64,000 nucleotides of DNA from an uncultured Planctomycetales bacterium (GTDB lineage: Bacteria > Omnitrophota > Gorgyraeia > Zapsychrales > JBDRMG01), in assembly GCA_964478715.1 (NCBI GenBank), contig CAYZIY010000001.1, forward strand, positions 149,196 through 213,195. The letters are read 5' to 3'. Below, piece after piece: positions 30,213 through 45,540 of the stretch. The position numbers were made by a program, and so were the translations under genes. Under the pieces are notes generated by a model. It was not told the DNA's origin. It did not search any database and saw only the letters and a program-made list of their open reading frames with translations. Each line of letters starts with the position of its first letter. Positions within the stretch are counted from its first letter, which is position 1.

Positions 30213-30218
30213 ACCAGA

Positions 30219-31451: not shown

Positions 31452-31486
31452 AGAATTAGTAAGATTAAAATAGTAAGGAGATATGT

Positions 31487-31801: not shown

Positions 31802-31817
31802 AAATGAAAAAAAATTA

Positions 31818-32926: not shown

Positions 32927-32955
32927 TTGACAGAAGGGCTTTTGTGGTTTATATT
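32927..32955 (+). promoter_or_regulatory. Consensus sigma70 promoter (TTGACA-17-TATATT) upstream of fur
   Basis: ttgaca at 32927-32932, 17-nt spacer, tatatt at 32950-32955. Confidence 0.5.
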
Positions 32956-32957
32956 GG

Positions 32958-32975
32958 TAATGAAAACCATTATCA
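32958..32975 (+). promoter_or_regulatory. Fur-box-like operator immediately downstream of the -10 element
   Basis: taatgaaaaccattatca matches about 15 of 17 positions of the core TAATGATAATCATTATC. Confidence 0.4.
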
Positions 32976-33103
32976 ATAAGGAAACGGCCTTTATGACACC
33001 ATTGCGACATCACAGACGGATGCAGCAAGGACACAGGCCCGGAAGATGTTTCCGGGGCAATCAGTCTTTTGTGCAGGGGCAATTCAGAGGGTGCGGCTAC
33101 CGC

Positions 33104-33517
33104 ATGACCAAGCCCAGAGAAGCAATCATTGAGGTTCTCAGAATGGTCCAGGATCCCTTAAGCGCCGAGGATATATATTTCAGAGTCCATAAAATCTATT
33201 CGGACATCGGCCTGACAACCGTCTATCGGAATTTGGAGCTTTTGGTCTCGATGCAGCTGGTGAACAAATTCGACTTTGGCCATGGTTGTGCCAAATATGA
33301 ATTATCGGATAAAAATCCCAATGTCAAACACCATCATCACCTGATTTGCACCGTTTGCAATCGGGTGATCAGCTACTGTGATTTTATGGATCAGGAACTC
33401 AAATACCTCAAGGAAACCGAAAAGGGACTGGCTAAGAAATATCAGTTTGACATCAAAGATCATGTGATTCAGTTTTACGGTTTATGCAAATCTTGTCAAA
33501 AAAAAGAAAGGAGATGA
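33104..33517 (+). CDS. fur: Fur-family metal-responsive transcriptional regulator (Fur/Zur/PerR)
   Basis: N-terminal winged helix, HHHH plus CxxC...CxxC metal sites (HHHHLICTVCNRV ... YGLCKSCQ). Start moved to the Met at 33104; the longer ORF-track start at 32843 overlaps the upstream gene and reads as non-coding. Confidence 0.85.
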   Translation: MTKPREAIIEVLRMVQDPLSAEDIYFRVHKIYSDIGLTTVYRNLELLVSMQLVNKFDFGHGCAKYELSDKNPNVKHHHHLICTVCNRVISYCDFMDQELKYLKETEKGLAKKYQFDIKDHVIQFYGLCKSCQKKERR

Positions 33518-33522
33518 TCACC

Positions 33523-33873
33523 ATGCCAAGAGGAGACAGAACAGGACCGCAGGGAATGGGACCGATGACAGGCCGTCAGGCCGGTTACTGCGCAGGCTTT
33601 TCTGCACCCGGTTATATGAATCCGGTCGGCACAGGGCGAGGAATGGGCTTTCGTCGAGGCGGGGGACGAGGCGCAGGAGGTTACGGACGCGGCCGGGGTA
33701 TGGGCTGGGGCTGGAACGCTCCCGCTTACGGTTATCCGCAAGCTTATCCGGCAGGTTCCGCCTCGATGAGCAAAGAGGACGAGCTTAACGTATTGCGCCA
33801 GGAAGCGAAAGCTTTGGAGCAAGAGACGCAGTCTATTCAATCCAGAATTATCGAGCTGGAAAAAAACGAATAA
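33523..33873 (+). CDS. DUF5320-family protein (Gly/Arg-rich, C-terminal coiled coil)
   Basis: MPRGDRTGPQGMGPMTGRQAGYCAGF opening, glycine/arginine-rich middle, C-terminal helix EELNVLRQEAKALEQE; RBS aaaggag upstream. Confidence 0.7.
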   Translation: MPRGDRTGPQGMGPMTGRQAGYCAGFSAPGYMNPVGTGRGMGFRRGGGRGAGGYGRGRGMGWGWNAPAYGYPQAYPAGSASMSKEDELNVLRQEAKALEQETQSIQSRIIELEKNE

Positions 33874-33910
33874 ATAGTCGCGGAAACTCATTGATAAAAG
33901 AAAGGGGAGA

Positions 33911-34291
33911 ATGGTGAAATTTGCCATATCAACAGATGGAGACTTTGTCTCCGCTCATTTTGGCCGGTGTCCGTCTTTTACTTTGGTGGAGGCCGATAAT
34001 GCGCAGGTGACATCAAAAGAAGTTATCGCGAATCCCGGGCATCATCCCGGATTCTTGCCGGAATTTCTGCACAAACAAGACGTAACGGCGATCATTTGCG
34101 GCGGTATGGGCCAGCGGGCGCGTGTGCTTTTTGAGCAAAAGGCGATTCAAGCTATTACCGGATGTGAAGGCTCTGTAGATGAGGCCATCGATGCTTTTGT
34201 TAAAGGAAAACTTGAAAGCCGGGACAATCCATGCGCTCCGCGATCCGGCAAGGGATACGGATTAGATAAAACAGAATGCGACCACGATTAA
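33911..34291 (+). CDS. NifX/NifB-C-terminal-like dinitrogenase FeMo-cofactor-binding domain protein (copy 1)
   Basis: MVKFAISTDGDFVSAHFGRCPSFTLVE ... AIICGGMGQRA pattern typical of this domain. Confidence 0.8.
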   Translation: MVKFAISTDGDFVSAHFGRCPSFTLVEADNAQVTSKEVIANPGHHPGFLPEFLHKQDVTAIICGGMGQRARVLFEQKAIQAITGCEGSVDEAIDAFVKGKLESRDNPCAPRSGKGYGLDKTECDHD

Positions 34292-34305
34292 AGGAGAATG
34301 ATCAA

Positions 34306-34668
34306 ATGAAATTATGCATTACAGCCACTCAGCCATCTTTGGATGCTGAAATGGATTCTCGTTTTGGACGGTGCCGGTATTTTGCGATTATCGACAGTGA
34401 AACCGGCGAACATGAATTTATCGAAAACAAAAACATTAACGGTGTCGGAGGGGTCGGCATTCAGTCCGCCCAGCTCTTGTCGCAAAAGGGTGTTCAGGCT
34501 GTTGCCACAGGCCAGGTGGGCCCTAATGCCTTTCAGACACTAGCGTCGGCTGGAATTCGGGTTTACAGCGGACTTTCGGGCTCTGTATGCCGGGCGTTTC
34601 AGGAATTTAAGGATGAAAAGTTGACTCCCACTGAAAATCCTGATGCTCAACCAAAATCAGGAATATAA
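34306..34668 (+). CDS. NifX/NifB-C-terminal-like FeMo-cofactor-binding domain protein (copy 2)
   Basis: MKLCITAT...RFGRCRYFAIID...AVATGQVGPNA; start moved to the internal Met with RBS aaggaga. Confidence 0.8.
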   Translation: MKLCITATQPSLDAEMDSRFGRCRYFAIIDSETGEHEFIENKNINGVGGVGIQSAQLLSQKGVQAVATGQVGPNAFQTLASAGIRVYSGLSGSVCRAFQEFKDEKLTPTENPDAQPKSGI

Positions 34669-34672
34669 TTTC

Positions 34673-35278
34673 ATGGATGAAGGGAAGATTCTTGAGAATC
34701 ATAAAATTTATGCGCAGCGTCTTGAGCGAGCGAAAGAATTCGGATTTGATGTCAATCAAAACTGCCAGCAGATTATTGACCTGGCTCAGCCCATCCGGGG
34801 AAAGATTCTGGAAGTCGGCACCGGCAAAGGGCATTTCTGCCTGAATTTAGCCCAAGCGGGATATCGATTCAAAAGCATCGATCTTTCTTCTCAAGAGCAG
34901 GAGATCGCCCGGTTGAATCTGAAATATTTAAAGGAAGATGATCAGGTTGATTTTCTGATCGCCGATGCCCGCAGACTTCCCTTCGAAGATCAATATTTCG
35001 ACATTGTTTTTGCCGTCAATGTGGCCCATCATTTGGACGAACCGCTTGAGGTGGCCCAAGAAATCTTGAGGGTGGTCAAACAAGGCGGCAAAATGATTTG
35101 TACGGATTTCAATGATGAGGGATTTAACATTATTCACAAAATGCATTACAGCGAAGGCCATCATCATCCCGCCCAAGATTTCCGTTTATCGGATATCGAG
35201 CGCGCCCTGGCCCAGCAGGGTTATGAGATAAAAAAGCACCATACACCAACCCAGGATATATGTATTATCCACAAATAG
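34673..35278 (+). CDS. Class I SAM-dependent methyltransferase
   Basis: Motif I ILEVGTGKGHF, motif post-I/II (DLS ... IADARRLPFEDQYFDIVFA). Confidence 0.75.
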   Translation: MDEGKILENHKIYAQRLERAKEFGFDVNQNCQQIIDLAQPIRGKILEVGTGKGHFCLNLAQAGYRFKSIDLSSQEQEIARLNLKYLKEDDQVDFLIADARRLPFEDQYFDIVFAVNVAHHLDEPLEVAQEILRVVKQGGKMICTDFNDEGFNIIHKMHYSEGHHHPAQDFRLSDIERALAQQGYEIKKHHTPTQDICIIHK

Positions 35279-35284
35279 GGAATC

Positions 35285-36124
35285 ATGATACTTTCAGTTG
35301 CCAGCGGAAAAGGGGGAACAGGCAAGACGACAATAGCTACCAGCCTGGCTCTGTCGTTAAAAAATGCGCAGATACTTGATTGCGATGTCGAAGAGCCCAA
35401 TGCCCATATTTTTATTCAGCCTGAAATAGAAAATTCTGAAACAATTTCCCTTCCTGTTCCTGAGATAGATGAAAGTCTTTGCGATCACTGCGGCAGGTGC
35501 CAGGAGGTTTGCGCTTACCATGCGATCGCGGTCTTGCCTCAGAAGGTCTTGGTTTTTCCTCAGCTTTGCCATGGATGCGGTTCATGTCATTATTTTTGTC
35601 CACGCAAAGCCATCAAAGAAGTGGATCAACGGATCGGTGTTGTGGAAACCGGATTCAAAGATGATCTGGCTTTTGCGCATGGACGTTTGGATATCGGCCA
35701 GGCCATGGCGCCGCCTTTAATCAGGGCGCTTCAAAAGCATGTAGACCCTCAAAAAATCAATATTATCGACGCTCCTCCGGGAACATCCTGTCCGGTGATT
35801 GAGGCGATTCGGGAGAGTGATTTCTGCATTCTCGTTACTGAGCCTACGCCTTTTGGTCTCAATGACCTGAGACTGGCCGTTGAGGTTTTGCGCAAGCTGA
35901 AAATTCCCTTTGGAGTGGTGATCAATCGTTCTGATTTGGGAGACTCCTGCACGGAGGATTATTGTCGCAAAGAGAGCATGCCGGTTTTGATGCGTGTTCC
36001 TTTTGACCGCGCTATCGCTGAAGGGTATTCGCGGGGGCAGACATTGGTTGAGACTAATTCTGAATATAAAGATCAATTTAATGATATTTATTTTCAAATC
36101 AATAAACTCATTAAACAAAGTTAG
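35285..36124 (+). CDS. MinD/ParA-superfamily P-loop ATPase with inserted 2x[4Fe-4S] ferredoxin domain (copy 1)
   Basis: Walker A SGKGGTGKTT; CDHCGRCQEVC and CHGCGSCHYFCP cysteine clusters. Confidence 0.8.
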   Translation: MILSVASGKGGTGKTTIATSLALSLKNAQILDCDVEEPNAHIFIQPEIENSETISLPVPEIDESLCDHCGRCQEVCAYHAIAVLPQKVLVFPQLCHGCGSCHYFCPRKAIKEVDQRIGVVETGFKDDLAFAHGRLDIGQAMAPPLIRALQKHVDPQKINIIDAPPGTSCPVIEAIRESDFCILVTEPTPFGLNDLRLAVEVLRKLKIPFGVVINRSDLGDSCTEDYCRKESMPVLMRVPFDRAIAEGYSRGQTLVETNSEYKDQFNDIYFQINKLIKQS

Positions 36125-37483
36125 GTGGATGACATGGAAAAGAAAACGGATATTTTAATTATAGGCGGGGGTCCGGCCGGGATGGTTTGTGCGATTACGG
36201 CAAAGAAATATTATCCGTCTAAAAACGTCCTGGTTATGAAGGATATTGAAAATGGCGTTATTCCCTGCGGAATTCCTTATATGTTTGCCAGCCTTAAGGA
36301 TCCCCAGGATAATGCTTTGGGCGCCGCAGCACTAAAGGACAATCACATTGAACTAGCCATTGATCAAGCATTATCGATCAATCGTGAGAAAAAATACATT
36401 GAGTCCGAAAAAGGCGACAAGTATTACTATGAAAAATTGGTTTTGGCTTGTGGTTCAACTCCTGTCGTTCTGCCTATTGAGGGAATCAACAAAAAAGGGG
36501 TCTATCCGATCCATAAGGATATGAACTATCTTAAGGATGTTATTGAAAAAATAAAACATTGCCGTAATGTGATTGTTATCGGAGGGGGTTTTATCGGTGT
36601 TGAATTTGCCGATGAGCTATCCACGAAAAAAGGAATCAATGTGAGCTTGGTCGAAATGCTTCCGCATCTTTTAGCCAATTCTTTTGACGAAGAATTCTCG
36701 AAATTGGCCGAGGACCGCCTGAAAGCAAAGGGTGTTCAGGTTTTGACTAAAACGTGCATTGAGGCCATTGTCGGCAACGAAAAGGCCGAAAAGGTTCGCT
36801 ATTTAAACGGACAGGAGCAGGTTGTCGATGCGGTTATTCTTGGAATCGGATCCAGGCCTAACGCACAGTTAGCGCGGGATGCCCAATTAGAGATCGGTTC
36901 CTGCAGAGGAATCTTGGTTGATGAATACATGCGCACGACCAGGGATCCCGATATTTTTGCGATCGGAGACTGTTCTTGCAAAAGGGATTTCTATACCAGA
37001 AAAGCAATTCCGGTGATGTTGGCTTCAACCGCAACGGCTGAAGCGAGAATTGCGGGCGCTAACCTGTATCAGATTAAAGTTGTCCGGGAGAACAAGGGAA
37101 CGATTGCGATTTATTCAACCTATCTGGATGGGTTAGTTCTGGGCTCCGCCGGATTAACTGAGCAAACAGCCCGTCAGGAGGGTTTTGAAATCGTGACGGG
37201 AATTTCAAAGGGGGTGGATAAACATCCGGGATCTCTTCCCGGCACAAGCCAGGGAATGATTAAGCTGATTTTTTCAAAGCAGTCCGGCATTATTCTAGGC
37301 GGTCAGATCAGTTGCGGGATGTCATGCGCTCAACTGATTAATGTGATCGGTATTGCTATTCAAAAGAGAATGTCCTTTACAGAATTAGAAACGCTTCAGG
37401 TCGCTACACATCCTTATTTAACCAGTGCTCCGACTAAATATCCCATTATTCAGGCTGCTCAGGATGCGTATTGTAAAATGTGA
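36125..37483 (+). CDS. FAD-dependent pyridine nucleotide-disulfide oxidoreductase (NADH oxidase / CoA-disulfide reductase-like)
   Basis: FAD motif ILIIGGGPAGM, second dinucleotide motif VIVIGGGFIGVEFA, C-terminal dimerisation domain. Confidence 0.8.
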   Translation: MDDMEKKTDILIIGGGPAGMVCAITAKKYYPSKNVLVMKDIENGVIPCGIPYMFASLKDPQDNALGAAALKDNHIELAIDQALSINREKKYIESEKGDKYYYEKLVLACGSTPVVLPIEGINKKGVYPIHKDMNYLKDVIEKIKHCRNVIVIGGGFIGVEFADELSTKKGINVSLVEMLPHLLANSFDEEFSKLAEDRLKAKGVQVLTKTCIEAIVGNEKAEKVRYLNGQEQVVDAVILGIGSRPNAQLARDAQLEIGSCRGILVDEYMRTTRDPDIFAIGDCSCKRDFYTRKAIPVMLASTATAEARIAGANLYQIKVVRENKGTIAIYSTYLDGLVLGSAGLTEQTARQEGFEIVTGISKGVDKHPGSLPGTSQGMIKLIFSKQSGIILGGQISCGMSCAQLINVIGIAIQKRMSFTELETLQVATHPYLTSAPTKYPIIQAAQDAYCKM

Positions 37484-37505
37484 GCCTTAATCAAGGAATG
37501 GAGTT

Positions 37506-38375
37506 ATGAAGCAAATTGTTATCATCAGCGGGAAAGGCGGAACAGGCAAAACGGTGATCACGGCCAGCTTTGCGGCTCTGGCCCGAAATCATATTATGGC
37601 CGATTGCGATGTCGATGCCGCTGATTTGCATTTATTGCTGGAGCCAACAGTGAGTCAAACCCATGAATTCAAAAGCGGTTTAACGGCTCAAGTTGATCTG
37701 TCTCAGTGCACCCGCTGCGGGCAATGCCGTCAGATCTGCCGATTTCAAGCGATTGATGAGCATTTCCAGATTGATCCGATTGCTTGCGAAGGTTGTGCTT
37801 TTTGTTCTCATGTCTGTCCATTGGGGGCTATTACAATGAAAGAAAATACAGCCGGAGAGTGGTTTATCTCGGAAACCCGTTTCGGGATGATGGTGCATGC
37901 TAAGTTGGGTGTGGCCGAAGAGAATTCGGGGAAACTGGTCAGCCTGGTTCGTAGTCAGGCCAAGGAATTAGCGGCACAAAAGGGATGCGATTGGGTGATC
38001 ATTGACGGGTCGCCGGGCATTGGCTGTCCGGTTATTGCTTCTTTATCCGGCGTGGATTGCGCTGTTGTTGTGACCGAGCCGACCCTTTCGGGATTACACG
38101 ACGCCCTGAGGGTGATCGAGGTGGCCGGGCATTTTCATATTCCGACAAAAGTGATTATCAACAAATATGATTTGAATCCTCAGATATCTCAAAGATTGGC
38201 CGATGCCTGTGGCCGAAAAGGGGCTGATGTGATCGGGAAAATACGTTTTGATAAATCCATCGTTCATGCTATGGTGCAAAGAAAAACGGTTATTGAAGCG
38301 GCAGACGGAATCATTCAAAAGGAAGTGACCGATATCTGGGAAAGGCTGCAGAAGGAAATCCTAAAAGGCTTTTGA
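37506..38375 (+). CDS. MinD/ParA-superfamily P-loop ATPase with inserted 4Fe-4S ferredoxin domain (copy 2)
   Basis: Walker A SGKGGTGKTV; CTRCGQCRQIC and CEGCAFCSHVCP clusters. Confidence 0.8.
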   Translation: MKQIVIISGKGGTGKTVITASFAALARNHIMADCDVDAADLHLLLEPTVSQTHEFKSGLTAQVDLSQCTRCGQCRQICRFQAIDEHFQIDPIACEGCAFCSHVCPLGAITMKENTAGEWFISETRFGMMVHAKLGVAEENSGKLVSLVRSQAKELAAQKGCDWVIIDGSPGIGCPVIASLSGVDCAVVVTEPTLSGLHDALRVIEVAGHFHIPTKVIINKYDLNPQISQRLADACGRKGADVIGKIRFDKSIVHAMVQRKTVIEAADGIIQKEVTDIWERLQKEILKGF

Positions 38376-38384
38376 AATTCACAG

Positions 38385-39023
38385 ATGAACATTTTTGATA
38401 AGGATTATAAAAGATACGATCAATGGTATGAGAAAAACCACTTTGCCTATCTGTCGGAGCTGGAAGCCATAAAGAAATACGCTCTTGCGAAAGGGCGGAG
38501 TTTGGAGGTCGGTGTCGGAACCGGCAGGTTTGCGGCTCCTTTGAATATCACAATGGCCATAGACTCCTCTCATAATATGCTCACATTAGCTGGCCACAGA
38601 GGGATCAATGTGCGTTGGGGAATGGCTGAAGATATTCCTTTTTCTAATGATCTCTTTGATGATGTTTTTATGATCAGCACGGTTTGTTTTGTCCATGATC
38701 CATCAAAAGCTTTGCAGGAATGCAAAAGAGTGCTTAAAGATGACGGTTGTTTAATTTTGGGAATGATCAATAAAAACAGTTTTTTGGGACACTGCTATAT
38801 GAAAAAAAAGAGTATTTTCTATCCACAGGCTCGTTTTTTCAGCGTGGAGGAAATAACGCAGTTGTTAGAAGAAGCCGGATTTGATAATCTGAAATACTAT
38901 CAGACCATCTTTGACCATCCCAAAAAGATCAGAAAAATCGAGAAGCCTCAAAAGGGTTTTGATAAAGGCGGTTTTATTGTTATCAAAGCCAATAAAAAAA
39001 CTTTCTTTCCTCATTTTATATGA
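38385..39023 (+). CDS. Class I SAM-dependent methyltransferase (second copy)
   Basis: LEVGVGTGRFAAPL motif I; VFMISTVCFVHDPSKAL; CLILGMIN. Confidence 0.75.
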   Translation: MNIFDKDYKRYDQWYEKNHFAYLSELEAIKKYALAKGRSLEVGVGTGRFAAPLNITMAIDSSHNMLTLAGHRGINVRWGMAEDIPFSNDLFDDVFMISTVCFVHDPSKALQECKRVLKDDGCLILGMINKNSFLGHCYMKKKSIFYPQARFFSVEEITQLLEEAGFDNLKYYQTIFDHPKKIRKIEKPQKGFDKGGFIVIKANKKTFFPHFI

Positions 39024-39562
39024 TTCAAAGTATTCAATTATGCCTTAAGCATAAACGCAGGATCGATTTCAAAAAGAAGATGATCTTTTCACCCGGCTTC
39101 AATACCGTGATCGGCCCCAATGGCTCCGGCAAGAGTTCGCTTTTGCGCGCTATTGATGCTTGCCGAGCGTGCCGGCGTCAAGAAGAGACAAAGACGCGCT
39201 ATCATTATTTTAACAGTGAGACCATGAATCCTCACAGAGACGCAAGGTTCTTTAAGGGGATCGAAGGTTCTATGGTCAAAGTCCGGGCGATGTTTTCCTC
39301 TCACGGGGAGACCATGCGGGATGTGCTTCGTTGTATCAAAGTTGAACCGGGAGATTGTTTTCTTTGTGATGAGCCGGAAGCCGGTCATGATTTGAACTGG
39401 ATTATCAGAATCCGTAAAGGCTTGGACCAGTTGGTTAAAAGAAAATGCCAGATTATCGCGGCCTCCCATCATCCTGTCTTTTGGAATAAAGCAAACGTCA
39501 TTGAGCTTCAGCACAACTACAGTAAAAACACACGGGAAAAAATAAGAAAGTGGATTCGATGA
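39020..39562 (+). CDS. Minimal ABC-type ATPase-like protein (180 aa)
   Basis: Walker A GPNGSGKSS, signature-like SSHGE, Walker B CFLCDEPEAGHD, H-loop-like AASHH, all within 180 aa with no helical subdomain. Confidence 0.5.
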   Translation: MIQSIQLCLKHKRRIDFKKKMIFSPGFNTVIGPNGSGKSSLLRAIDACRACRRQEETKTRYHYFNSETMNPHRDARFFKGIEGSMVKVRAMFSSHGETMRDVLRCIKVEPGDCFLCDEPEAGHDLNWIIRIRKGLDQLVKRKCQIIAASHHPVFWNKANVIELQHNYSKNTREKIRKWIR

Positions 39563-40299
39563 TTCTTAAAGAAGCTAAAGAAAAAGTTTTTCAGAAAGCC
39601 CAGCAGGAAAATCTGCTTGAGAAATCTGTTTGTGTTCGGGCTAAGGTGCTTTCGGCCGAAGAAGCCATCGGAAATCCCGAGGAATATGATTTTCCGCTTT
39701 TAAAGGGAAGAGAGAAGATCGTTGAAGCAAATTTTCAAACGCATAAAGGGCATGCCTTTAGTGATATGTTTGGAGGATTTCAAGGATCATTGAGTGATGT
39801 CCTTCAGATGCCTTTATCCAACAATTACCGCCGGTCTTTAGTGGTGGCGACATTAAATGCCGTTACGCGCTATTGGGGGCTTATTGATCAGACCGTTCAT
39901 TGCCGGGATCAGCAACCCAAAGAATGCGCAAAACGCTGTGTAGAATATTTTTCCCAACGGTATCCGTCAATCAAGAAACTGACTCTGATCGGTTTTCAGC
40001 CCGCTATGGCCGATGCTTTTTTAAAAACAGTGGAATTAAAGATTCTGGATTTGGATCCGGAGAATATCGGGAAAGAAAAATTTGGCGTGATGATCGAAGA
40101 CGGGATCAAAGATCTCAAAAAGGCCTCTCAATGGGGTGATGGGGTTCTGGCCACAGGTTCTTCTGTTGTCAATGGGACCATTGATCAGATCATGGAAACG
40201 GCTAAAGGCAAGAAAGTCATTTTTTATGGGGTGACCATAGCGGCTGTCTCTTATTGGGCTGATTTAAATCGGCTCTGTTTTGTCGGAGATGATCTGTGA
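39550..40299 (+). CDS. DUF364/DUF4213-like Rossmann-type protein (putative metal-chelation domain family)
   Basis: Two-lobed architecture with a C-terminal Rossmann-like block KKLTLIGFQPAMA...LDLDPEN...VLATGSSVVNGT. Confidence 0.4.
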   Translation: MDSMILKEAKEKVFQKAQQENLLEKSVCVRAKVLSAEEAIGNPEEYDFPLLKGREKIVEANFQTHKGHAFSDMFGGFQGSLSDVLQMPLSNNYRRSLVVATLNAVTRYWGLIDQTVHCRDQQPKECAKRCVEYFSQRYPSIKKLTLIGFQPAMADAFLKTVELKILDLDPENIGKEKFGVMIEDGIKDLKKASQWGDGVLATGSSVVNGTIDQIMETAKGKKVIFYGVTIAAVSYWADLNRLCFVGDDL

Positions 40300-41081
40300 T
40301 GGAATGGATGGTTGTAATGAGCGTTTTTGCGGTGTCCTTTGTCTTTTCCATGTTTGGCATGGGCGGAGGGCTGATCTTTATGCCTCTTTTTATGAACCTT
40401 ACCGATCACTATTTCGAGGCTTCCGCGTACAGCTTTATGGCCATCTTTGCGACCAGTTTTTCGGCGATGATCGCTTATCATAGGCAGAAATTGATCGACT
40501 GGTCTCTGGTGCGTCGCCTGGGGCTGCCCCTGGCCGGGGCTGTCTTTTTGACAGGCCACCTTGCTGTCAATATTTCTTTTTCCCATTTGAAATGGATTCT
40601 CTCTGTTGTTCTTATGGCAGCCGGTACGAGCATGATGATGTTTTCCGCAAAAAAGACCACTCACAATAAGGATGATCAAGCCGAAGATCAAAGACCGGAA
40701 AGTTTGTTTATGCACTTCTTGACGGTTGTTTCCGGATTATTGATCGGATTATTTTCTGGTTTGGCCAGTGTGGCCGGCGGTGTCTTCGAGATTCCCCTGA
40801 TTGTGCACGGGTTGCGAAAGCCGGCACATGTCGCGGTAGCTACTTCGTCGGTGACGGTTGTCTTGGCTTCCCTACTGGGATTTATCGGACGGATTTCTTT
40901 TTATCCTCAATCTGTTGAGCCGGATATATTCTTGCTGATCGGAATTCTCATGGCGGCCGTTTGCGGAGGAAGTTTAGGGCCTCTGGTTTCCCTGAAGGCT
41001 CATAAAGATATTTTTAAAAAGCTGTGCGGCGCCTTTGTTTTTGTCATTGGCGCCGCTTATTTATTACGATCAATCCATTAA
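40296..41081 (+). CDS. TauE/SafE-family membrane transporter (sulfite/anion exporter family)
   Basis: Polytopic membrane protein; GMGGGLIFMPLFMNL and GVFEIPLIVHGL motifs. Confidence 0.7.
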   Translation: MMEWMVVMSVFAVSFVFSMFGMGGGLIFMPLFMNLTDHYFEASAYSFMAIFATSFSAMIAYHRQKLIDWSLVRRLGLPLAGAVFLTGHLAVNISFSHLKWILSVVLMAAGTSMMMFSAKKTTHNKDDQAEDQRPESLFMHFLTVVSGLLIGLFSGLASVAGGVFEIPLIVHGLRKPAHVAVATSSVTVVLASLLGFIGRISFYPQSVEPDIFLLIGILMAAVCGGSLGPLVSLKAHKDIFKKLCGAFVFVIGAAYLLRSIH

Positions 41082-41093
41082 GAGGATGACTTT

Positions 41094-41963
41094 ATGAAAA
41101 CCTATGAAGAATGCATACCGTGTCTTTTGCGGCAGGCTCATCAAATTGCTGATCTGGCCACCAGCGATGAGACCTTAAAAAATGAAATCATCGATGATTT
41201 GGTGAGCCTGATTCCCGGACTTTCCTTTGAGTCTTCTCCGCCGGAAACGGCCCGTTTGATTCAGAAAAAGATTAAAAAAAAGGTCTTGGGAAGGGATATC
41301 TATAAAGACATCAAAGCAAAAAGCAATCAAATGGCTTTGAAGCTCTATCCACAGATGAAGGAAATGATTGAGCATTCCAAAGAAAAGCTGTTAACAGCGG
41401 TGGAAATGGCGATTGCCGGCAATGTCATCGATTATGGCGCCAAAAACACCTTAAATATTGAACAAGAAATTGATCAACTGTTTAAGGGGCAATTTCAGAA
41501 GCACGCCAAAGTTGTTTTTGATTTTGGTCAATTCAAGCAGGCGCTGAATGAGACTAACGAGATTTTGTATTTAGCCGACAATGCTGGTGAAATCGTCTTT
41601 GATAAAATCCTTATCGAAGAGCTTGTTTCACAAGGTAAAAAGGTCATCCTGGCTGTCCGTGGCGAACCGGTGATCAATGATGCTCTGATGGAAGATGCTC
41701 TCTCTTGCGGCCTGGATCAGGTGGCTCAAGTGATTTCAAGCGGCGTCGATGCACCGGGAACGATTTTAAAATATTGCTGTGAAGAATTTCTCACGATTTA
41801 CCGAAAATCACAACTTATCATCAGTAAAGGGCAGGGAAATTACGAGGCTTTAAGCGAGGAGAAAGAGCCGATTTATTTTTTACTGAGAGCCAAATGCCCG
41901 GTGATTGCCGATCATCTCAAAGTTGAAGTGGGCGATATTGTTCTTAAAGAAGCCAAAAGATAG
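41094..41963 (+). CDS. DUF89 / ARMT1-like metal-dependent phosphatase-family protein
   Basis: N-terminal CIPCLLRQ cysteine motif and overall length typical of DUF89. Confidence 0.6.
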   Translation: MKTYEECIPCLLRQAHQIADLATSDETLKNEIIDDLVSLIPGLSFESSPPETARLIQKKIKKKVLGRDIYKDIKAKSNQMALKLYPQMKEMIEHSKEKLLTAVEMAIAGNVIDYGAKNTLNIEQEIDQLFKGQFQKHAKVVFDFGQFKQALNETNEILYLADNAGEIVFDKILIEELVSQGKKVILAVRGEPVINDALMEDALSCGLDQVAQVISSGVDAPGTILKYCCEEFLTIYRKSQLIISKGQGNYEALSEEKEPIYFLLRAKCPVIADHLKVEVGDIVLKEAKR

Positions 41964-41982
41964 AAGAGAGAGAATCTGTGAA

Positions 41983-42696
41983 ATGAATATCAAAGTCGTT
42001 TATGATAATGACTCAATGAATTGTCGATTTGCCTGCGGGTGGGGTGTGGCTTATATTATCGACGGTAAGATTTTGTTTGATACCGGAGATGAAGGACAAG
42101 CTCTTGAAAAGAATATTATCTCTGCTGGTTGCGATATTTCTAATTTGCAAACTATTGTGATATCTCATGATCATTGGGATCACACCGGGGGATTAAACCA
42201 GATTCTACCAAAAAGAAAAGGAATTTCCGTACTCGTTTGTCCGGATGTCAGCGAAAATATTAGGACGTCTATAAGAAATCTGAACGCTGATTTAGTCGAA
42301 TGCGGGCGGCCCTTTCAAGTAACCAAAGATATTTTTACGACGGGTTCAATGACCTGTGAATATAAAAAGACCCTGCTGTCGGAACAGGGTTTGGTGATAA
42401 GAACAGCCAATGGACACAGTCTGATTACCGGTTGCGCTCATCCCGGGATGGAGCAAATGATCAACAAGACGAGGGAACAATTCTCGATCGAACAGTTCTA
42501 CGCGGTGATCGGGGGATTTCACCTGTTTCGTGACAAAAAGAATGAGGTCGCGCAACTGGCTGATCGATTGAAGAATTCGGGTATCCAAAAAATCGGTCCC
42601 TGTCATTGCAGCGGGAGATTGGCTAAACAGATCTTTAAAGAGGTTTTTCAAAAGGATTATCTGCCCGTAGCCGCGGGGCAGCAATTTGATCTTTAA
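41983..42696 (+). CDS. MBL-fold metallo-hydrolase
   Basis: HxHxDH motif ISHDHWDHTGG plus downstream His/Asp ligands; start set at Met 41983. Confidence 0.75.
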   Translation: MNIKVVYDNDSMNCRFACGWGVAYIIDGKILFDTGDEGQALEKNIISAGCDISNLQTIVISHDHWDHTGGLNQILPKRKGISVLVCPDVSENIRTSIRNLNADLVECGRPFQVTKDIFTTGSMTCEYKKTLLSEQGLVIRTANGHSLITGCAHPGMEQMINKTREQFSIEQFYAVIGGFHLFRDKKNEVAQLADRLKNSGIQKIGPCHCSGRLAKQIFKEVFQKDYLPVAAGQQFDL

Positions 42697-42760: not shown

Positions 42761-44443
42761 ATGATGGTATTACGAAAAACTTATCTGCTTAATAAGTATT
42801 TTCTGTTGATCTTCCTTGGAACGATTGCTCTTTATTGCTTTATCTTCTTACCTTTTGCGCAAGCTGATCCGCCGTCAAGCAGGGATGAAGCTATCTGCGC
42901 TGCGTATATTACCGGCATCGGTTGCGGCAATTGCGCGGTTTCCGATCCCTATATTTTCACCGAACTTATCCAGAAATATCCGCAACTGATCATCATCGAA
43001 TATGAGATTTACAAATCAAGAGAAGAAAACAAATTCGTTAAAGACGGTTATTTTGCTAATTATATTAAGGAAGGGCAACGGGCCGGCGTTCCGTTTTTTA
43101 TCTTTGATTCCAGGCATAATGCGATCGGCCGTTATGAGGTTCTCGATGTGGCCAAGCGCATTCATGATTTATCATCGAATCCTTGTCCTTTAGCCAATGG
43201 TAAGTCGCAAGATTTTGAAAGTCTGGATATCCGCACTCTGCCCGGCCAATATAATATCTGGACAAAAAACCGGGTCTTGTTATCTGCCGACGGCGGTGAT
43301 AAAAGCATATTAAAACGCATTCTTCTTAAGCGCGATATTTCCAGTGCCTTAGAGGGAGTTCATTTTCAGAAAGTCGACCCGGTACCAGTGGAAATCTCGC
43401 AGGGCAAGATTCATTTTGATTATGCGGTTACAATCGGCGACTGGCGATTGCAGTGGAACGGGGAACCGCTTAAGGTGAGAAAGAGCTTCCGGCTGGGCGA
43501 TGATGCGATGACATGGATTTTTATCTCGATCATTTTTCTTCTGGCCGTTTTCTTTTTCTTTAAAATTGAAAAAAGAGAAAAGACCATGGCCATTACATTC
43601 CGCTTTCAGCGCAAAAAGAAGGAAGTGATCATTGTCTTGATTTCGCTGTTGGCCATTCTGGCCTTTCTTCTTTTGACCAAAAACGTGAACCCTGACTATC
43701 TGAAAAAAATGGGATATCAATTACCGCTTCCGGTCTTTACGGTTTTCATCGCCTTGGTTGACGGATTCAATCCCTGCAATATGTTTGTCTTAACCTGTCT
43801 ATTGGCTTTATTAATCTCCAGCTCTGATTCTAAGGCCAGACTTTTTGCGGTGGCGATCAGCTTTGTGGTCGTGGTTTATATTATCTACTTTCTATTTATG
43901 ACTGCCTGGTTGAATATCTTTAAGTATTTCAGTTTCGTGGCCCCGCTGCGCATCGGAATCGCGATTTTAGCTCTGGCGGCCGGGATTATCAATTGCAAAG
44001 AACTGTTGTTTTTTAAAAAAGGTATTTCGCTCACCATCCAGGATAAGCACAAAGACACCCTCATGGGCCGCATGCGGGGGATGAAAAAAATTATTCAAAA
44101 CGGTTCATTCCCCATTTTGATTACCTCCAGTATCGGCTTGGCCACGCTGGCCTCTCTGGTAGAGCTTCCCTGCACGGCCGGTTTTCCGATTGTCTATACC
44201 GGTATTCTCTCGGGGAAAATTCTTAATAGCACGCTGGCCTATTATCTTTATCTGGCCTTTTACAATCTGATTTATGTGATCCCGCTTCTTGTGATCATTA
44301 CGATCTTTATCAACACCTTTCACGCCAAGGCCATTTCCGAGCGCCAGGTGCAGATCATTAAGTTTATCGGCGGCGTGATCATGCTGCTTTTAGGGATCGT
44401 GCTTTTGGTTAATCCCGGTTTGATCGGTCTGGGATTCGGTTGA
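42761..44443 (+). CDS. Fusion of periplasmic thioredoxin-like CxxC domain with CcdA/DsbD-family transmembrane thiol:disulfide transporter
   Basis: Signal/TM, GIGCGNCAV CxxC motif, then multi-TM region with the characteristic DGFNPCNMFVL cysteine-in-membrane motif. Confidence 0.7.
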   Translation: MMVLRKTYLLNKYFLLIFLGTIALYCFIFLPFAQADPPSSRDEAICAAYITGIGCGNCAVSDPYIFTELIQKYPQLIIIEYEIYKSREENKFVKDGYFANYIKEGQRAGVPFFIFDSRHNAIGRYEVLDVAKRIHDLSSNPCPLANGKSQDFESLDIRTLPGQYNIWTKNRVLLSADGGDKSILKRILLKRDISSALEGVHFQKVDPVPVEISQGKIHFDYAVTIGDWRLQWNGEPLKVRKSFRLGDDAMTWIFISIIFLLAVFFFFKIEKREKTMAITFRFQRKKKEVIIVLISLLAILAFLLLTKNVNPDYLKKMGYQLPLPVFTVFIALVDGFNPCNMFVLTCLLALLISSSDSKARLFAVAISFVVVVYIIYFLFMTAWLNIFKYFSFVAPLRIGIAILALAAGIINCKELLFFKKGISLTIQDKHKDTLMGRMRGMKKIIQNGSFPILITSSIGLATLASLVELPCTAGFPIVYTGILSGKILNSTLAYYLYLAFYNLIYVIPLLVIITIFINTFHAKAISERQVQIIKFIGGVIMLLLGIVLLVNPGLIGLGFG

Positions 44444-44462
44444 TGATTCATTTCCCTATTTT

Positions 44463-45083
44463 ATGAAAATCTCCAAATTCGCAACGACACTCCTGACGCT
44501 GATCATTCTGATTGGCAGTATTTATGTCTTAAGATTTATCTCAACGCGAGTATTGGATCATTTCAAGGAGGAGTCCTTCTTGAAGGTCAAGGGGAATCCC
44601 GCGGCTCCTGTGCATATTATTGAATACTCGGATTTCTTTTGTCCGGCCTGCCGAAGAGGATCCGGGGAGCTCAAAAAACTTTTCCAGAAATATCCGGATC
44701 AGATTTATCGACAATACCGGTTTTTTCCTTTGGCCCGACTTCATCCGCAGATAATGGATTTGTGTCTGTTTGCACAATGCGCAGCCCAGCAGCATCAATT
44801 CTGGACTTATTATGATTTGTTGATGCGTGATCAGCAGAACCTCAAGAAGATGGGCAAACCGCGTTCATATCTTTTTGGGCTTGCGCGGGAAGCCCAATTA
44901 AATTTGTCTGAGCTTAAAAAATGTTTAGCCGATCCCCAAACGCTTTCTAAGATTCTAGCTGATCAACAGAGGGGAAAACGAAAAAAAGTTGAAGCCACGC
45001 CGACCTATTTTGTGAACGGAAAGAAGATTGTGGGCTATTTTAAACTCAAAAATGAAATCCAAAAGCAACTTCAAGACAACTGA
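44463..45083 (+). CDS. DsbA/thioredoxin-like periplasmic thiol:disulfide oxidoreductase
   Basis: Signal anchor, CxxC motif FCPACRRG, thioredoxin fold length. Confidence 0.75.
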   Translation: MKISKFATTLLTLIILIGSIYVLRFISTRVLDHFKEESFLKVKGNPAAPVHIIEYSDFFCPACRRGSGELKKLFQKYPDQIYRQYRFFPLARLHPQIMDLCLFAQCAAQQHQFWTYYDLLMRDQQNLKKMGKPRSYLFGLAREAQLNLSELKKCLADPQTLSKILADQQRGKRKKVEATPTYFVNGKKIVGYFKLKNEIQKQLQDN

Positions 45084-45540
45084 TTTTCGCAGAATCAATA
45101 TATTTATTTCTGTAAGGATTGCCTTAAGTGCAGCCCTGATTCTTTTTCACGGCAGTCTGCTTCTGAAACCTTTTGAGCACCATGCTTATATGTTGGCTCG
45201 AATGGATGTGATCAGCCAGGGCAGGCTTGTGGATATCTTTGCCATTGGCCTGCCCTGGCTGGGTTATTTATTGGGCGGTTTTCTTTTGGTCGGCCTGCAT
45301 ATCAAATTCTGCCTCGGCGCCATGATCTTATTCTCAGCCGGAGAGTCTTTATTTTTTGCCCGGGCCATATCGATCAATCCGCCTGAGACCGTTGCGGTGA
45401 CGGTTTTTCATGATTTTCCGCTAACCGTGTCTTTTCTTTTAGGAGTAAACCTTTTGATTTTGCTGATTAGTATCATTCTAATTTTCCAGAGACACAAAGC
45501 AAGTGAACACTCTTTAGATCGATATTATCGGCGTTTTTAA
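45028..45540 (+). CDS. DoxX/MauE-like small polytopic membrane protein
   Basis: Four predicted TM helices; position next to the DsbA-like gene. Annotated start overlaps the upstream gene by 56 nt, so the start is uncertain. Confidence 0.4.
   Translation: MWAILNSKMKSKSNFKTTDFRRINIFISVRIALSAALILFHGSLLLKPFEHHAYMLARMDVISQGRLVDIFAIGLPWLGYLLGGFLLVGLHIKFCLGAMILFSAGESLFFARAISINPPETVAVTVFHDFPLTVSFLLGVNLLILLISIILIFQRHKASEHSLDRYYRRF

What the first reader, a model, noticed from the sequence alone, without database searches (positions are those of the whole stretch)
32927..42696. Fur-box-controlled promoter, fur, and a 9-kb co-directional cluster of DUF5320, 2x NifX-like, 2x ferredoxin-MinD ATPases, FAD-disulfide reductase, two methyltransferases and accessory genes: an uncharacterised metallocofactor or iron-responsive system
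A textbook promoter (TTGACA-17-TATATT) is followed within 3 bp by a Fur-box-like palindrome, then by fur itself. With gaps of 0-40 nt the following genes come next:
- a DUF5320 protein (MPRGDRTGP...);
- two NifX/NifB-C-terminal-type FeMo-cofactor-binding domain proteins;
- a SAM methyltransferase;
- a MinD-type ATPase with two ferredoxin cysteine clusters;
- an FAD/NAD(P) disulfide oxidoreductase;
- a second ferredoxin-MinD ATPase;
- a second methyltransferase;
- a minimal ABC-like ATPase;
- a DUF364-like chelation-domain protein;
- TauE/SafE, DUF89 and an MBL hydrolase.
The DUF5320 + NifX-like + ferredoxin-ATPase core recurs in many anaerobes that do not fix nitrogen, and has no assigned function. 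Here it sits under an apparently autoregulated Fur promoter and is extended with redox and methylation enzymes. This points to assembly, trafficking or repair of an iron-sulfur or other metal cofactor under metal limitation.
Basis: partly seen in the sequence, partly recalled or inferred. Interest (0 to 1): 0.7.

Follow-up and report, generated by a model that had tools for sequence, protein, structure and literature searches.

The report
Fur-type repressor guarding an orange-protein-like operon
A special version of the bacterial iron-sensor protein Fur sits with its own DNA switch in front of genes for small metal-sulfur-binding proteins. This same unit recurs in many oxygen-avoiding bacterial phyla, which gives a first regulatory handle on a protein complex whose job is still unknown.

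Summary
A near-consensus sigma-70 promoter (32927-32955) abuts a Fur-type palindrome (32955-32979). Next come fur, DUF5320, two NifX-domain genes, two MinD ATPases with ferredoxin inserts, and accessory genes.

The operator is not a chance match. A matrix built from 12 orthologous loci scores it 36 bits; the random maximum is 22, and no other site in 64 kb rises above noise.

The Fur belongs to a dedicated subfamily. Apart from three partial exceptions, homologs at 45% identity or more, from about eight phyla, are followed by DUF5320-NifX-MinD/Fer4. None of 69 homologs at 42% or less are. The subfamily has an unstructured N-terminal FRGCGYR extension.

The core is not wholly uncharacterised. 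NifX2 best matches the Desulfovibrio orange protein. NifX1 resembles the MrpORP C-terminal domain. The ATPases have the Orp3/Orp4 build. This is an ORP-type module, but under Fur-type rather than sigma-54/OrpR control.

DUF5320 is a disordered, cationic, Gly/Arg/aromatic-rich protein with a coiled coil. It is frequently fused to the NifX domain, giving the same build as the thioferrate store IssA.

Iron responsiveness is unproven. The ligand pattern is a Fur/PerR hybrid, and this window's copy uniquely lacks two sensor-site ligands.

Verdict: a new variant of known kinds, with function inferred.

The parts
32927..32955 (+). Sigma-70 promoter: TTGACA (-35), 17-nt spacer, TATATT (-10).
   Evidence: 11 of 12 match, the best in the 16-kb scan. 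Both hexamers are conserved in orthologous loci while the spacer sequence is not.
32955..32979 (+). Fur-family operator TGGTAATGAAAACCATTATCAATAA, a 10-1-10 palindrome. It overlaps the end of the -10 hexamer and the expected transcription start.
   Evidence: 16 of 19 match to the E. coli Fur box, a unique hit with 0.06 expected. PWM score 36.1 bits against a random maximum of 22. Conserved in 22 Fur-linked loci.
32993..33517 (+). Fur-family repressor, 174 aa, from a cluster-dedicated subfamily. It has an unstructured N-terminal extension ending in FRGCGYR.
   Evidence: PF01475, E 2e-28. The nearest model is Bacillus-type Fur, at 127 bits against a cut-off of 220. NCBI's gene call is also 174 aa. 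AF2 gives the canonical fold from residue 40. P55 and S127 replace the H and D/E ligands.
33523..33873 (+). DUF5320 protein. It has an invariant N-terminal motif with one Cys, a cationic Gly/Arg/aromatic-rich disordered core, and a C-terminal acidic helix.
   Evidence: PF17253, E 8e-26. Composition and pI are and the alignment. AF2 gives residues 1-83 disordered and helix 84-114.
33911..34291 (+). NifX-domain protein 1. It resembles the C-terminal (Di-Nase) domain of MrpORP/Orp9 and carries HFGRC and C-terminal CDH motifs.
   Evidence: PF02579. NCBIfam MrpORP positions 265-365, E 5e-28. The motifs are conserved in orthologs.
34306..34668 (+). NifX-domain protein 2, homologous to the orange protein (Orp8) and to MTH1175.
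   Evidence: PF02579. The best PDB hit is D. gigas ORP 2wfb at E 2e-18, followed by MTH1175.
34673..35278 (+). SAM-dependent methyltransferase 1. An alternative start lies at 34643.
   Evidence: Methyltransf_11, E 1e-23. No NCBIfam cut-off is reached. Homologs occur in L002, L013, L139 and L145.
35285..36124 (+). MinD/ParA-type P-loop ATPase with an inserted 2x[4Fe-4S] ferredoxin domain, the same build as Orp3/Orp4.
   Evidence: CbiA/ParA plus Fer4. Motifs CDHCGRCQEVC and CHGCGSCHYFC. Orthologs at 53-65% identity lie in Fur-linked loci.
36125..37483 (+). Single-cysteine FAD/NAD(P)H oxidoreductase of the CoA-disulfide, persulfide and NADH-oxidase family.
   Evidence: Pyr_redox_2. Best PDB hits are NoxA-3, Pyrococcus CoADR and CoA-persulfide reductase, with the PCGIPY Cys aligned. 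Orthologs at 63-64% identity sit in the same position between the two ATPase genes in L125 and L112.
37506..38375 (+). Second MinD/ParA-type ATPase with a 2x[4Fe-4S] insert.
   Evidence: Pfam. Motifs CTRCGQCRQIC and CEGCAFCSHVC. An identical gene lies on Logan contig L001.
38385..39023 (+). SAM-dependent methyltransferase 2.
   Evidence: Methyltransf_11, E 2e-17. Homologs at 51-52% identity in L006 and L125.
39020..39562 (+). Small ABC/SMC-like P-loop protein of 180 aa. It is lineage-specific.
   Evidence: AAA_21 and SMC_N N-terminal hits only. Not found in any related locus except the same organism's contig L001.
39550..40299 (+). DUF364-domain protein. It is lineage-specific.
   Evidence: PF04016, E 3e-10. 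Absent from related loci.
40296..41081 (+). TauE/SafE-family membrane anion exporter.
   Evidence: PF01925, E 4e-38. No homolog was detected by tblastn in related loci. A TauE gene does lie near a DUF134-type cluster in L090.
41094..41963 (+). DUF89/ARMT1-like damage-control phosphatase.
   Evidence: PF01937, E 5e-72. It recurs in L002, L015, L090, L100, L129 and L153.
41983..42696 (+). MBL-fold hydrolase.
   Evidence: PF00753 and PF12706. It recurs in L002, L010, L018 and L091.
42761..45540 (+). Possible extension, membership uncertain: a 560-aa membrane protein with CxxC, a DsbA/Thioredoxin_4 protein, and a 170-aa membrane protein.
   Evidence: Thioredoxin_4, E 9e-25. A DsbA plus MauE/DoxX pair follows the MBL gene in relative L002. 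Gaps are 64 and 19 nt, followed by an overlap.

Best explanation
This is one autoregulated transcription unit.

The switch. A strong sigma-70 promoter is overlapped, from the last base of its -10 hexamer across the start site, by a 21-25 bp Fur-type palindrome. The first gene encodes the repressor that binds it. That repressor belongs to a Fur subfamily co-inherited with this operon across many anaerobic phyla. When it carries its signal it occludes the promoter. When the signal is lost, fur and the downstream genes are transcribed together. The signal is most likely Fe2+, possibly read out through oxidation.

The regulated core. It is an orange-protein (ORP)/IssA-type module that binds and passes on inorganic metal-sulfide species, most likely iron-sulfur. 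Its parts are:
- an Orp8-like NifX-domain scaffold;
- a second, Cys/His-bearing NifX domain like that of MrpORP;
- two MinD-type ATPases carrying 2x[4Fe-4S];
- DUF5320, a disordered cationic Gly/Arg/aromatic protein with a coiled coil. I read it as the in-trans equivalent of the cationic tail that wraps thioferrate in IssA.

Accessory genes. A CoADR/persulfide-reductase-like flavoenzyme could supply reduced sulfur or reducing power. The methyltransferases, DUF89 and MBL are recurrent helpers of unknown role.

What is shown: the anatomy, the conservation of the promoter and operator, the exclusive Fur-cluster linkage, and the homologies.

What is inferred: the effector, the direction of the response, co-transcription, and the chemical species handled.
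For: Promoter and operator:
- Footprint: TTGACA-17-TAtAaT plus the operator is conserved in 12 of 13 genome and contig loci, while the spacer varies. It is also present in all 10 Fur-linked metagenome loci that have enough upstream DNA, at 24-36 bits.
- Across 1.92 Mb of related loci, all 43 sites of 23 bits or more lie next to fur or DUF5320 and none lies elsewhere.

Dedicated regulator:
- Ten of the 13 non-redundant loci with a Fur at 45% identity or more carry the cluster. Two more keep only a NifX gene and one has fur alone.
- None of the 69 loci with a Fur at 42% or less carries it.
- The FRGCGYR N-terminal motif occurs in 108 of 120 clade members and in 0 of 69 outsiders.

ORP link:
- NifX2's best PDB hit is the orange protein 2wfb.
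- NifX1 matches the MrpORP C-terminal domain and carries the HFGxC and CDH motifs (PMC6345978).
- The ATPases have the Orp3/Orp4 architecture (PMC6345978).

IssA link:
- DUF5320 composition and predicted disorder plus a helix.
- A natural NifX-DUF5320 fusion in L019 passes both Pfam cut-offs.
- About 107 of the best 120 homologs of that fusion carry both domains.
- The architecture and tail chemistry of IssA are described in PMC5524996.

CoADR orthologs sit in the same slot in L125 and L112.
Against: - No expression or binding data exist for any member.
- A repressor that releases at low iron fits poorly with a storage role. Storage proteins are usually induced by iron sufficiency.
- The clade's ligand set is H/E/H/H/D. 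The Asp lies at the position said to confer peroxide sensitivity (PMC4866751).
- The window's own Fur has Pro and Ser at two sensor-site positions. It is the only one of 120 with either change, so its responsiveness may be altered.
- The orange protein itself binds a Mo-Cu-S cluster, not Fe-S.
- In Desulfovibrio the ORP complex was proposed to act in cell division.
- The window has no Mrp/NBP35 domain and no Orp5 homolog.
- Orp3/Orp4 orthology rests on architecture. No direct alignment to the Desulfovibrio proteins was made.
Confidence: 0.6

Rival explanations
1. The regulator is functionally a PerR-like oxidant or redox sensor, not an iron-limitation sensor. The operon would then be switched on by oxidative damage, to rebuild or protect Fe-S clusters. 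This parallels the redox control of orp genes by OrpR in Desulfovibrio.
For: - 100 of 120 clade members have Asp at the position equivalent to PerR Asp104.
- PMC4866751 reports that position as the suggested determinant of H2O2 access.
- The H/E/H/H/D pattern equals that of the peroxide-sensing B. licheniformis PerR3.
- OrpR senses redox potential (PMC8359166).
Against: - Overall similarity is higher to Bacillus-type Fur (127 bits) than to PerR models (78 bits). The PDB search agrees, with Fur at 1e-29 and PerR at 3e-13.
- The operator has the TGA...TCA outer bases of Fur boxes.
- 16 of 120 members have Glu at this position, and the window has Ser.
Confidence: 0.25
2. The module handles thiomolybdate, thiotungstate or copper species, as the orange protein does in vitro, rather than iron-sulfur. 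The Fur-type regulator would then sense another metal.
For: NifX2's closest solved relative is the Mo-Cu-S-binding orange protein (PMC6345978).
Against: - Every other link points to iron-sulfur: the Fur family and Fur-box operator, the ferredoxin inserts, and the MrpORP-like Cys/His domain reported to bind a [3Fe-4S] cluster (PMC6345978).
- The IssA-like NifX-DUF5320 fusions point the same way.
- No Mo or W transport or cofactor genes lie in the cluster.
Confidence: 0.12
3. The ATPases act as MinD-like positioning or cell-division factors, as first proposed for the ORP complex. The metal clusters would be regulatory only.
For: - MinD/ParA homology.
- The proposal and the polar localisation reported in PMC6345978 and PMC4672049.
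Against: - The tight linkage to a metal-sensor family.
- Linkage to NifX scaffolds, persulfide-reductase-like enzymes, radical SAM and Mrp carriers.
- No division genes lie nearby.
Confidence: 0.08
4. Only fur through the second ATPase, plus a methyltransferase, form the functional unit. The genes from the P-loop protein to the MBL hydrolase, and beyond, are merely co-directional neighbours.
For: - P-loop and DUF364 have no counterpart in any related locus, and TauE none detected by tblastn.
- The plus-strand gene run continues for many kb past 42696 into unrelated genes.
Against: - Overlapping or 4-19 nt junctions, with no convincing terminator.
- DUF89 and MBL do recur in other clusters.
Confidence: 0.4

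Closest known systems
Orange protein (ORP) complex of Desulfovibrio vulgaris and D. alaskensis: Orp3, Orp4, Orp5, Orp8, Orp9/MrpORP
   Same: - An Orp8-type NifX-domain protein.
- A second NifX (Di-Nase) domain with the HFGxC and CDH motifs.
- Two paralogous MinD-type ATPases, each with two [4Fe-4S] motifs.
- Restricted to anaerobes.
- Clustered with a dedicated regulator.
   Different: - Control is by a sigma-70 promoter and a Fur-family repressor. Desulfovibrio uses sigma-54, OrpR and IHF, and no sigma-54 site lies near this cluster.
- The genes form one operon rather than two divergent ones.
- The Di-Nase domain stands alone, without the Mrp/NBP35 P-loop domain.
- No Orp5 homolog was identified.
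- DUF5320, the methyltransferases and the CoADR-like enzyme are added.
IssA (SipA) thioferrate storage protein of Pyrococcus furiosus, and the uncharacterised 'IssX' clade
   Same: - The same IPR003731/PF02579 globular domain.
- A cationic, glycine- and aromatic-rich, disordered partner segment.
- An iron-linked regulatory context.
- A CoADR/NSR-type enzyme in the same response.
   Different: - In the window the tail-like segment is a separate protein, DUF5320. It has its own invariant N-terminal motif and a coiled coil.
- Fusions occur only in relatives.
- No evidence of thioferrate exists.
- IssA is induced when iron and sulfide are abundant. A classical Fur repressor would predict induction at low iron.
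Fur-family metalloregulators (Fur, PerR, Zur) with autoregulated promoters
   Same: - Winged-helix plus dimerisation fold.
- Cys4 structural site and the HHHH motif.
- A palindromic AT-rich operator overlapping the -10 hexamer and the start site of its own promoter.
   Different: - Helix alpha-1 is replaced by an unstructured W/H/R/G-rich extension ending in FRGCGYR.
- The operator core is AATGG-N3-CCATT in many members, instead of AATGA-N3-TCATT.
- The regulon appears to be local only.
- The ligand set is a Fur/PerR hybrid.
- The window's copy lacks two ligands.
DUF134-linked DUF5320/NifX/MinD-Fer4 clusters
   Same: The same structural genes and the same accessory set: DUF89, radical SAM, Mrp, MBL and TauE.
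   Different: A DUF134 DNA-binding protein takes the regulator's position. No Fur-type operator was detected there.

Membership tests
Fur family (PF01475) | Fur-family domain with two CxxC pairs forming the structural zinc site. | tested here: met
   PF01475 at 99 bits. C119, C122, C165 and C168 are invariant in the clade. AF2 gives the canonical fold from residue 40.
Fur sensu stricto (iron sensor) | Reaches an NCBIfam Fur equivalog cut-off. | tested here: not met
   The best model is Bacillus-type Fur, at 127 bits against a cut-off of 220. E. coli-type Fur scores 78 against 146.
Fur sensu stricto (iron sensor) | Complete hinge (S2) sensor site: His, Glu, His, and Glu/Asp. | tested here: not met
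   The window has P55 and S127 where C. jejuni Fur and Bacillus-type Fur have His and Glu (alignments). Of 120 homologs, 118 have H and 116 have D or E. E103, the HHHH motif and H157 are kept.
Fur sensu stricto (iron sensor) | Fur-box operator at its own promoter. | tested here: met
   16 of 19 match to the consensus, and unique in the window. Conserved across loci.
PerR | Asp at both O-donor positions (Asp85 and Asp104 of B. subtilis PerR). | tested here: not met
   The position equivalent to Asp85 is Glu in 119 of 120. The position equivalent to Asp104 is Asp in 100 of 120, but Ser in the window (rule from PMC4866751).
Zur | A Cys S-donor in place of the Asp85-position ligand, and no His37-position ligand. 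| tested here: not met
   The clade has Glu and His at these positions (criteria from PMC4866751). The E. coli Zur model scores only 33 bits.
ORP complex | An orange-protein (Orp8) homolog. | tested here: met
   NifX2's best PDB match is 2wfb ORP, E 1.9e-18 over residues 2-110.
ORP complex | Two MinD-type ATPases, each with two [4Fe-4S] ferredoxin motifs (Orp3 and Orp4). | tested here: inconclusive
   The architecture and Cys motifs are present. No direct alignment with DVU2103 or DVU2104 was possible with the sequences held.
ORP complex | MrpORP (Orp9): an Mrp/NBP35 P-loop domain fused to a Di-Nase domain. | tested here: not met
   Only the Di-Nase-like part is present, as stand-alone NifX1. 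It scores 98 bits on model positions 265-365, against a cut-off of 450. Some relatives encode a separate Mrp/ParA protein.
ORP complex | Sigma-54 promoter and OrpR enhancer-binding protein. | tested here: not met
   The only TGGCAC-N5-TTGC match in 64 kb is at 62384. The cluster has a sigma-70 promoter and a Fur-family regulator instead.
IssA | IPR003731/PF02579 domain with a cationic Gly/aromatic-rich tail on the same chain. | tested here: not met
   The window's NifX proteins have no such tail, and the equivalent segment is the separate DUF5320. Fusions exist in relatives.
IssA | Binds thioferrate-type Fe-S polymer. | not testable with these tools
   This needs metal analysis, XAS or EPR of purified protein.
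DUF5320 (PF17253) | Pfam gathering score. | tested here: met
   91.6 bits against a cut-off of 27.
CoA-disulfide reductase | NCBIfam equivalog cut-off and the single active-site Cys. | tested here: inconclusive
   222 bits against a cut-off of 579. The PCGIPY Cys aligns with the active-site Cys of Pyrococcus CoADR and NoxA-3.
Nitrogenase cofactor maturation (NifX, NafY, NifB) | Association with nifHDK/nifEN genes. | not tested
   No nif structural genes lie among the neighbours examined (30-52 kb). The rest of the genome was not available.

The most novel reading that the evidence does not exclude
A previously unrecognised Fur subfamily is the dedicated sensor of a bacterial iron-sulfur mineral or cluster store. 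Its helix alpha-1 is replaced by a Cys-bearing FRGCGYR extension, and in some members the protein begins with the same MPRGDGTGP residues as DUF5320. In this reading, DUF5320 is the trans-acting cationic tail. Together with the orange-protein-like NifX domain it nucleates an anionic thioferrate-like Fe-S polymer. The MinD/Fer4 ATPases and the persulfide-reductase-like enzyme load or unload it. That would assign a physiological role to the ORP complex and extend thioferrate storage from Thermococcales to many bacterial phyla.
Probability: 0.2. Interest if true: 0.8.

Novelty: new variant of a known kind. Interest (0 to 1): 0.6.

Why it matters
The ORP complex and the thousands of non-nitrogenase NifX-domain proteins of anaerobes have lacked a physiological role for two decades.

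A conserved, simple repressor-operator pair in front of them turns the question into an experiment. One can ask which signal releases the repressor, and then look for what the induced proteins carry.

The frequent NifX-DUF5320 fusions tie an uncharacterised family, DUF5320, to the only member of the superfamily with a demonstrated storage function, IssA.

The unit also defines a Fur subfamily that genome annotation currently labels as a generic ferric uptake regulator. That label would mislead regulon predictions in Omnitrophota, Atribacterota, Nitrospirota and related uncultured groups.

Tried and rejected
- Exact-sequence look-ups of the CoADR-like protein and of the NCBI DUF5320 variant found nothing. 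The organism could not be named. Relatives are MAGs of Omnitrophota, Atribacterota and Nitrospirota.
- Literature searches found no prior description of this linkage. They covered DUF5320, DUF134, Fur with NifX or MinD, ORP with Fur, and COG1149. The library lacks most subscription papers, including Fievet 2011.
- Rfam found no RNA family in the whole window, so a riboswitch or leader RNA explanation was dropped.
- A sigma-54 promoter like that of the Desulfovibrio orp operons was sought and not found near the cluster.
- I considered that Orp5 might be DUF5320. I rejected this provisionally. Orp5 is described as homologous to a [2Fe-2S]-binding protein (PMC6345978) that, as I recall from Maiti 2016, which I could not open, has several Cys. 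DUF5320 has one Cys.
- An HMM of the DUF5320 N-terminus matches only the first 9-10 residues of a subset of clade Fur proteins. 33 of 120 match at E of 1 or less, against 0 of 69 controls. This is too weak to claim a shared domain.
- The terminator scan gave no more sites than chance, and all lie inside coding regions.
- NCBIfam gave nothing for DUF5320, DUF364 or the membrane proteins.

Full report
**1. The observation**

In order they are:
- fur (32993-33517);
- DUF5320 (33523-33873);
- two Nitro_FeMo-Co/NifX-domain genes (33911-34291 and 34306-34668);
- a methyltransferase;
- a MinD/ParA ATPase with two complete CxxCxxCxxxC motifs (35285-36124);
- a pyridine-nucleotide-disulfide oxidoreductase (36125-37483);
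- a second ATPase of the same build (37506-38375);
- a second methyltransferase;
- a small P-loop protein, then DUF364, TauE, DUF89/ARMT1 and an MBL hydrolase.

Junctions run from a 13-nt overlap to a 37-nt gap. The MBL gene starts at the ATG at 41983. The plus-strand gene run does not stop at 42696.

**2. Promoter and operator**

TTGACA-17-TATATT (32927-32955) is the best sigma-70 match in a 16-kb scan, at 11 of 12.

The 19-mer at 32956-32974 matches the E. coli Fur box at 16 of 19. It is the only such hit in 64 kb, with 0.06 expected.

I built a 25-bp weight matrix from the corresponding sites of 12 related loci, leaving the window out. It scores the window site 36.1 bits. The next best site in the window scores 17.1. 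The best of 100 random windows scores 22.0.

In relatives whose Fur is only 45-62% identical, the -35 hexamer, the -10 hexamer and the operator are all kept, while the 17-nt spacer is unrelated. The site is a 10-1-10 palindrome, TGAwAATGGw-A-wCCATTwTCA. It differs from the classical Fur box mainly by G/C two positions from the centre in many members.

**3. A dedicated Fur subfamily**

I scanned one genome per species with an alignment of the closest Fur homologs. I then ran tblastn of all window proteins against the fetched loci. The split is sharp.

Ten of the 13 non-redundant loci with a Fur at 45% identity or more have it directly followed by DUF5320, two NifX genes and two MinD/Fer4 genes. 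L012 and L014 end before the ATPase genes. These genomes belong to:
- Atribacterota;
- WOR-3;
- Omnitrophota (two genomes);
- Planctomycetales;
- Clostridia;
- Aminicenantes;
- Eubacteriales.

Two further genomes keep only a NifX gene, and one has fur alone. None of the 69 homologs at 42% or less has any of these genes.

Clade members share an N-terminal extension ending in FRGCGYR. It occurs in 108 of 120 members and in 0 of 69 outsiders. It replaces the usual helix alpha-1 and is predicted to be unstructured.

An independent metagenome sample anchored on DUF5320 gave 60 loci with at least 700 nt upstream. Of these, 13 had this Fur directly upstream, 11 had a DUF134 protein, and 36 had neither.

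Over 1.92 Mb of all fetched loci there are 43 operator sites of 23 bits or more. Twenty-six lie before fur and 15 before DUF5320. The other two are adjacent to fur. None lies elsewhere.

Many relatives carry a second operator in the fur-DUF5320 spacer. The window has only 5 nt there, so one promoter must serve both genes.

**4. Which kind of Fur**

The nearest models are:

| Model | Score | Cut-off |
|---|---|---|
| Bacillus-type Fur | 127 bits | 220 |
| E. coli-type Fur | 78 bits | 146 |
| Clostridial PerR | 78 bits | 180 |
| Zur | 33 bits | 167 |

No equivalog cut-off is met. The Cys4 site, the HHHH motif, E103, E135 and H157 are conserved.

At the two O-donor positions the clade has Glu, in 119 of 120, and Asp, in 100 of 120. 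PMC4866751 reports that Fur proteins have Glu where PerR has Asp104. It also reports that this residue has been suggested to decide H2O2 access, and that the peroxide-sensing PerR3 of B. licheniformis has exactly the Glu/Asp combination. Peroxide or redox sensing is therefore a live alternative to plain iron sensing.

The window's own protein is an outlier. It has Pro55 where 118 of 120 have His. It has Ser127 where 116 of 120 have Asp or Glu. An independent assembly carries the same sequence. Its second site (H113, H115, E135, H157) is intact. What this copy senses is open.

**5. What the regulated genes are**

*NifX domains.* NifX2's best solved relative is the Desulfovibrio gigas orange protein, 2wfb, at E 2e-18. 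MTH1175 comes next. NifX1's best family match is the C-terminal domain of MrpORP/Orp9, at E 5e-28. NifX1 orthologs keep an HFGRC motif, and many keep a C-terminal CDH. Those are the motifs proposed to hold the [3Fe-4S] cluster of that domain (PMC6345978).

*ATPases.* Orp3 and Orp4 are described as paralogous ATPases, each with two [4Fe-4S] ferredoxin motifs, that co-purify with Orp8 (PMC6345978). The two window ATPases have that architecture.

*Conclusion.* The core is an ORP-type module. It differs from the Desulfovibrio system in four ways:
- its regulator, since no sigma-54 promoter is present;
- lack of the Mrp domain;
- lack of an identified Orp5;
- the addition of DUF5320.

**6. DUF5320**

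The protein has three parts.
- The first 34 residues are almost invariant, MPxGDxTGPxGxGPMTGRxxGYCAGxxxPGYxNP, with a single Cys.
- A Gly/Arg/aromatic-rich segment follows, with pI 10-11.
- An acidic helix ends the protein.

AF2 predicts no structure for residues 1-83 and a confident helix for 84-114.

In L019 the ORP-like NifX domain is fused to a DUF5320 segment. Both pass Pfam cut-offs. About 107 of the 120 best homologs of that fusion carry both domains, and some add a ferredoxin domain.

This is the architecture of IssA of Pyrococcus furiosus. There the same globular domain, together with a cationic glycine- and aromatic-rich tail, holds thioferrate and can rebuild a [4Fe-4S] ferredoxin. 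The authors of that work noted an uncharacterised mesophilic 'IssX' clade with glycine-rich tails (PMC5524996).

I infer that DUF5320 acts with the NifX domain on an anionic metal-sulfide species. This is inference from architecture. It has not been demonstrated.

**7. Accessory genes**

The flavoenzyme belongs to the single-cysteine CoADR, persulfide-reductase and NADH-oxidase group. Its PCGIPY motif aligns with the active-site Cys of Pyrococcus CoADR. Orthologs at 63-64% identity occupy the same slot between the two ATPase genes in L125, which is Fur-linked, and in L112.

Methyltransferases, DUF89 and MBL recur in several clusters. So do radical SAM, Mrp/ParA, DnaJ-like and zinc-ribbon genes, which the window lacks.

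The P-loop and DUF364 genes have no counterpart in the related loci. TauE has none detected by tblastn, apart from a Pfam-annotated TauE gene near the cluster in L090. These three may be recent additions or mere neighbours.

**8. Mechanism and its weak points**

An operator that covers the start site of the regulator's own promoter implies repression and negative autoregulation. With a classical Fur, the operon would be induced at low iron. That suits a cluster-delivery or salvage role better than a storage role.

Three other readings fit equally well: an apo-repressor mode, a PerR-like mode, or sensing of an Fe-S species through the Cys-bearing extension. None can be decided from sequence.

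Co-transcription is inferred from spacing alone. I found no published description of this linkage in the library available.

**9. Verdict**

The feature is real, conserved and statistically secure. It is a new variant built from known kinds: a Fur-family repressor combined with an ORP/IssA-type module. Its function remains inferred.

Noticed in passing
window 33155-33157 (P55) and 33371-33373 (S127) of fur: The window's Fur has Pro and Ser at two canonical sensor-site ligand positions. It is the only one of the 120 closest homologs with either change; the others have His, and Asp or Glu. A Cys (C129) lies two residues after S127.
   Followed up: partly
Fur-clade proteins P0059, P0098, P0037 and others: About 20 of 120 clade Fur proteins begin with MPRG(D/N)GTGP, the same first nine residues as DUF5320. 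No non-cluster Fur does. The window's Fur does not (it begins MTPLRHH...). The support is weak and the meaning is unknown.
   Followed up: partly
L010 6874, L011 1629, L012 4925, L091 7953, L104 6955, L109 6955, L139 6912, and others: Many relatives carry a second copy of the operator between fur and DUF5320. Some loci without an adjacent fur (L098, L108, L157, L092) have it directly before DUF5320. The window has only a 5-nt spacer and no second site.
   Followed up: yes
L019 11227-11922; proteins P0242-P0361: NifX-domain plus DUF5320 fusions of 200-240 aa are very common. Some proteins add a 2x[4Fe-4S] ferredoxin domain (P0341, P0347, P0355, P0359). In L015 the NifX2 protein ends in a G/R tail plus a zinc ribbon.
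   Followed up: partly
L129 6170 and L153 11417: Two Fur-linked clusters carry a second Fur-family gene at their distal end.
   Followed up: no
L016 9939 and 10460: In a Melioribacteraceae genome the clade Fur stands alone, flanked by two operator copies. It sits next to a permease with a CSC motif, and no ORP-like genes lie nearby.
   Followed up: no
window 42761-45540: Three genes follow the MBL gene: a 560-aa membrane protein with an N-terminal CxxC, a DsbA/Thioredoxin_4 protein with CPAC, and a 170-aa membrane protein. A DsbA plus MauE/DoxX pair sits in the same place in relative L002.
   Followed up: partly
window 62384-62399: A perfect sigma-54 promoter consensus, TGGCACTCTTATTGCT, lies far from the cluster. 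About two such matches at one mismatch or fewer are expected by chance.
   Followed up: no
window 29784-32891: Upstream neighbours are two type IV pilin-like or pseudopilin genes (N-terminal FTFIELL-type motif), a cupin and a DUF3179 protein. DUF3179 ends 36 nt before the -35 hexamer, with no terminator seen.
   Followed up: no
window 1-64000: No Rfam family, including tRNA and rRNA, reaches its gathering score anywhere in the 64-kb window.
   Followed up: yes
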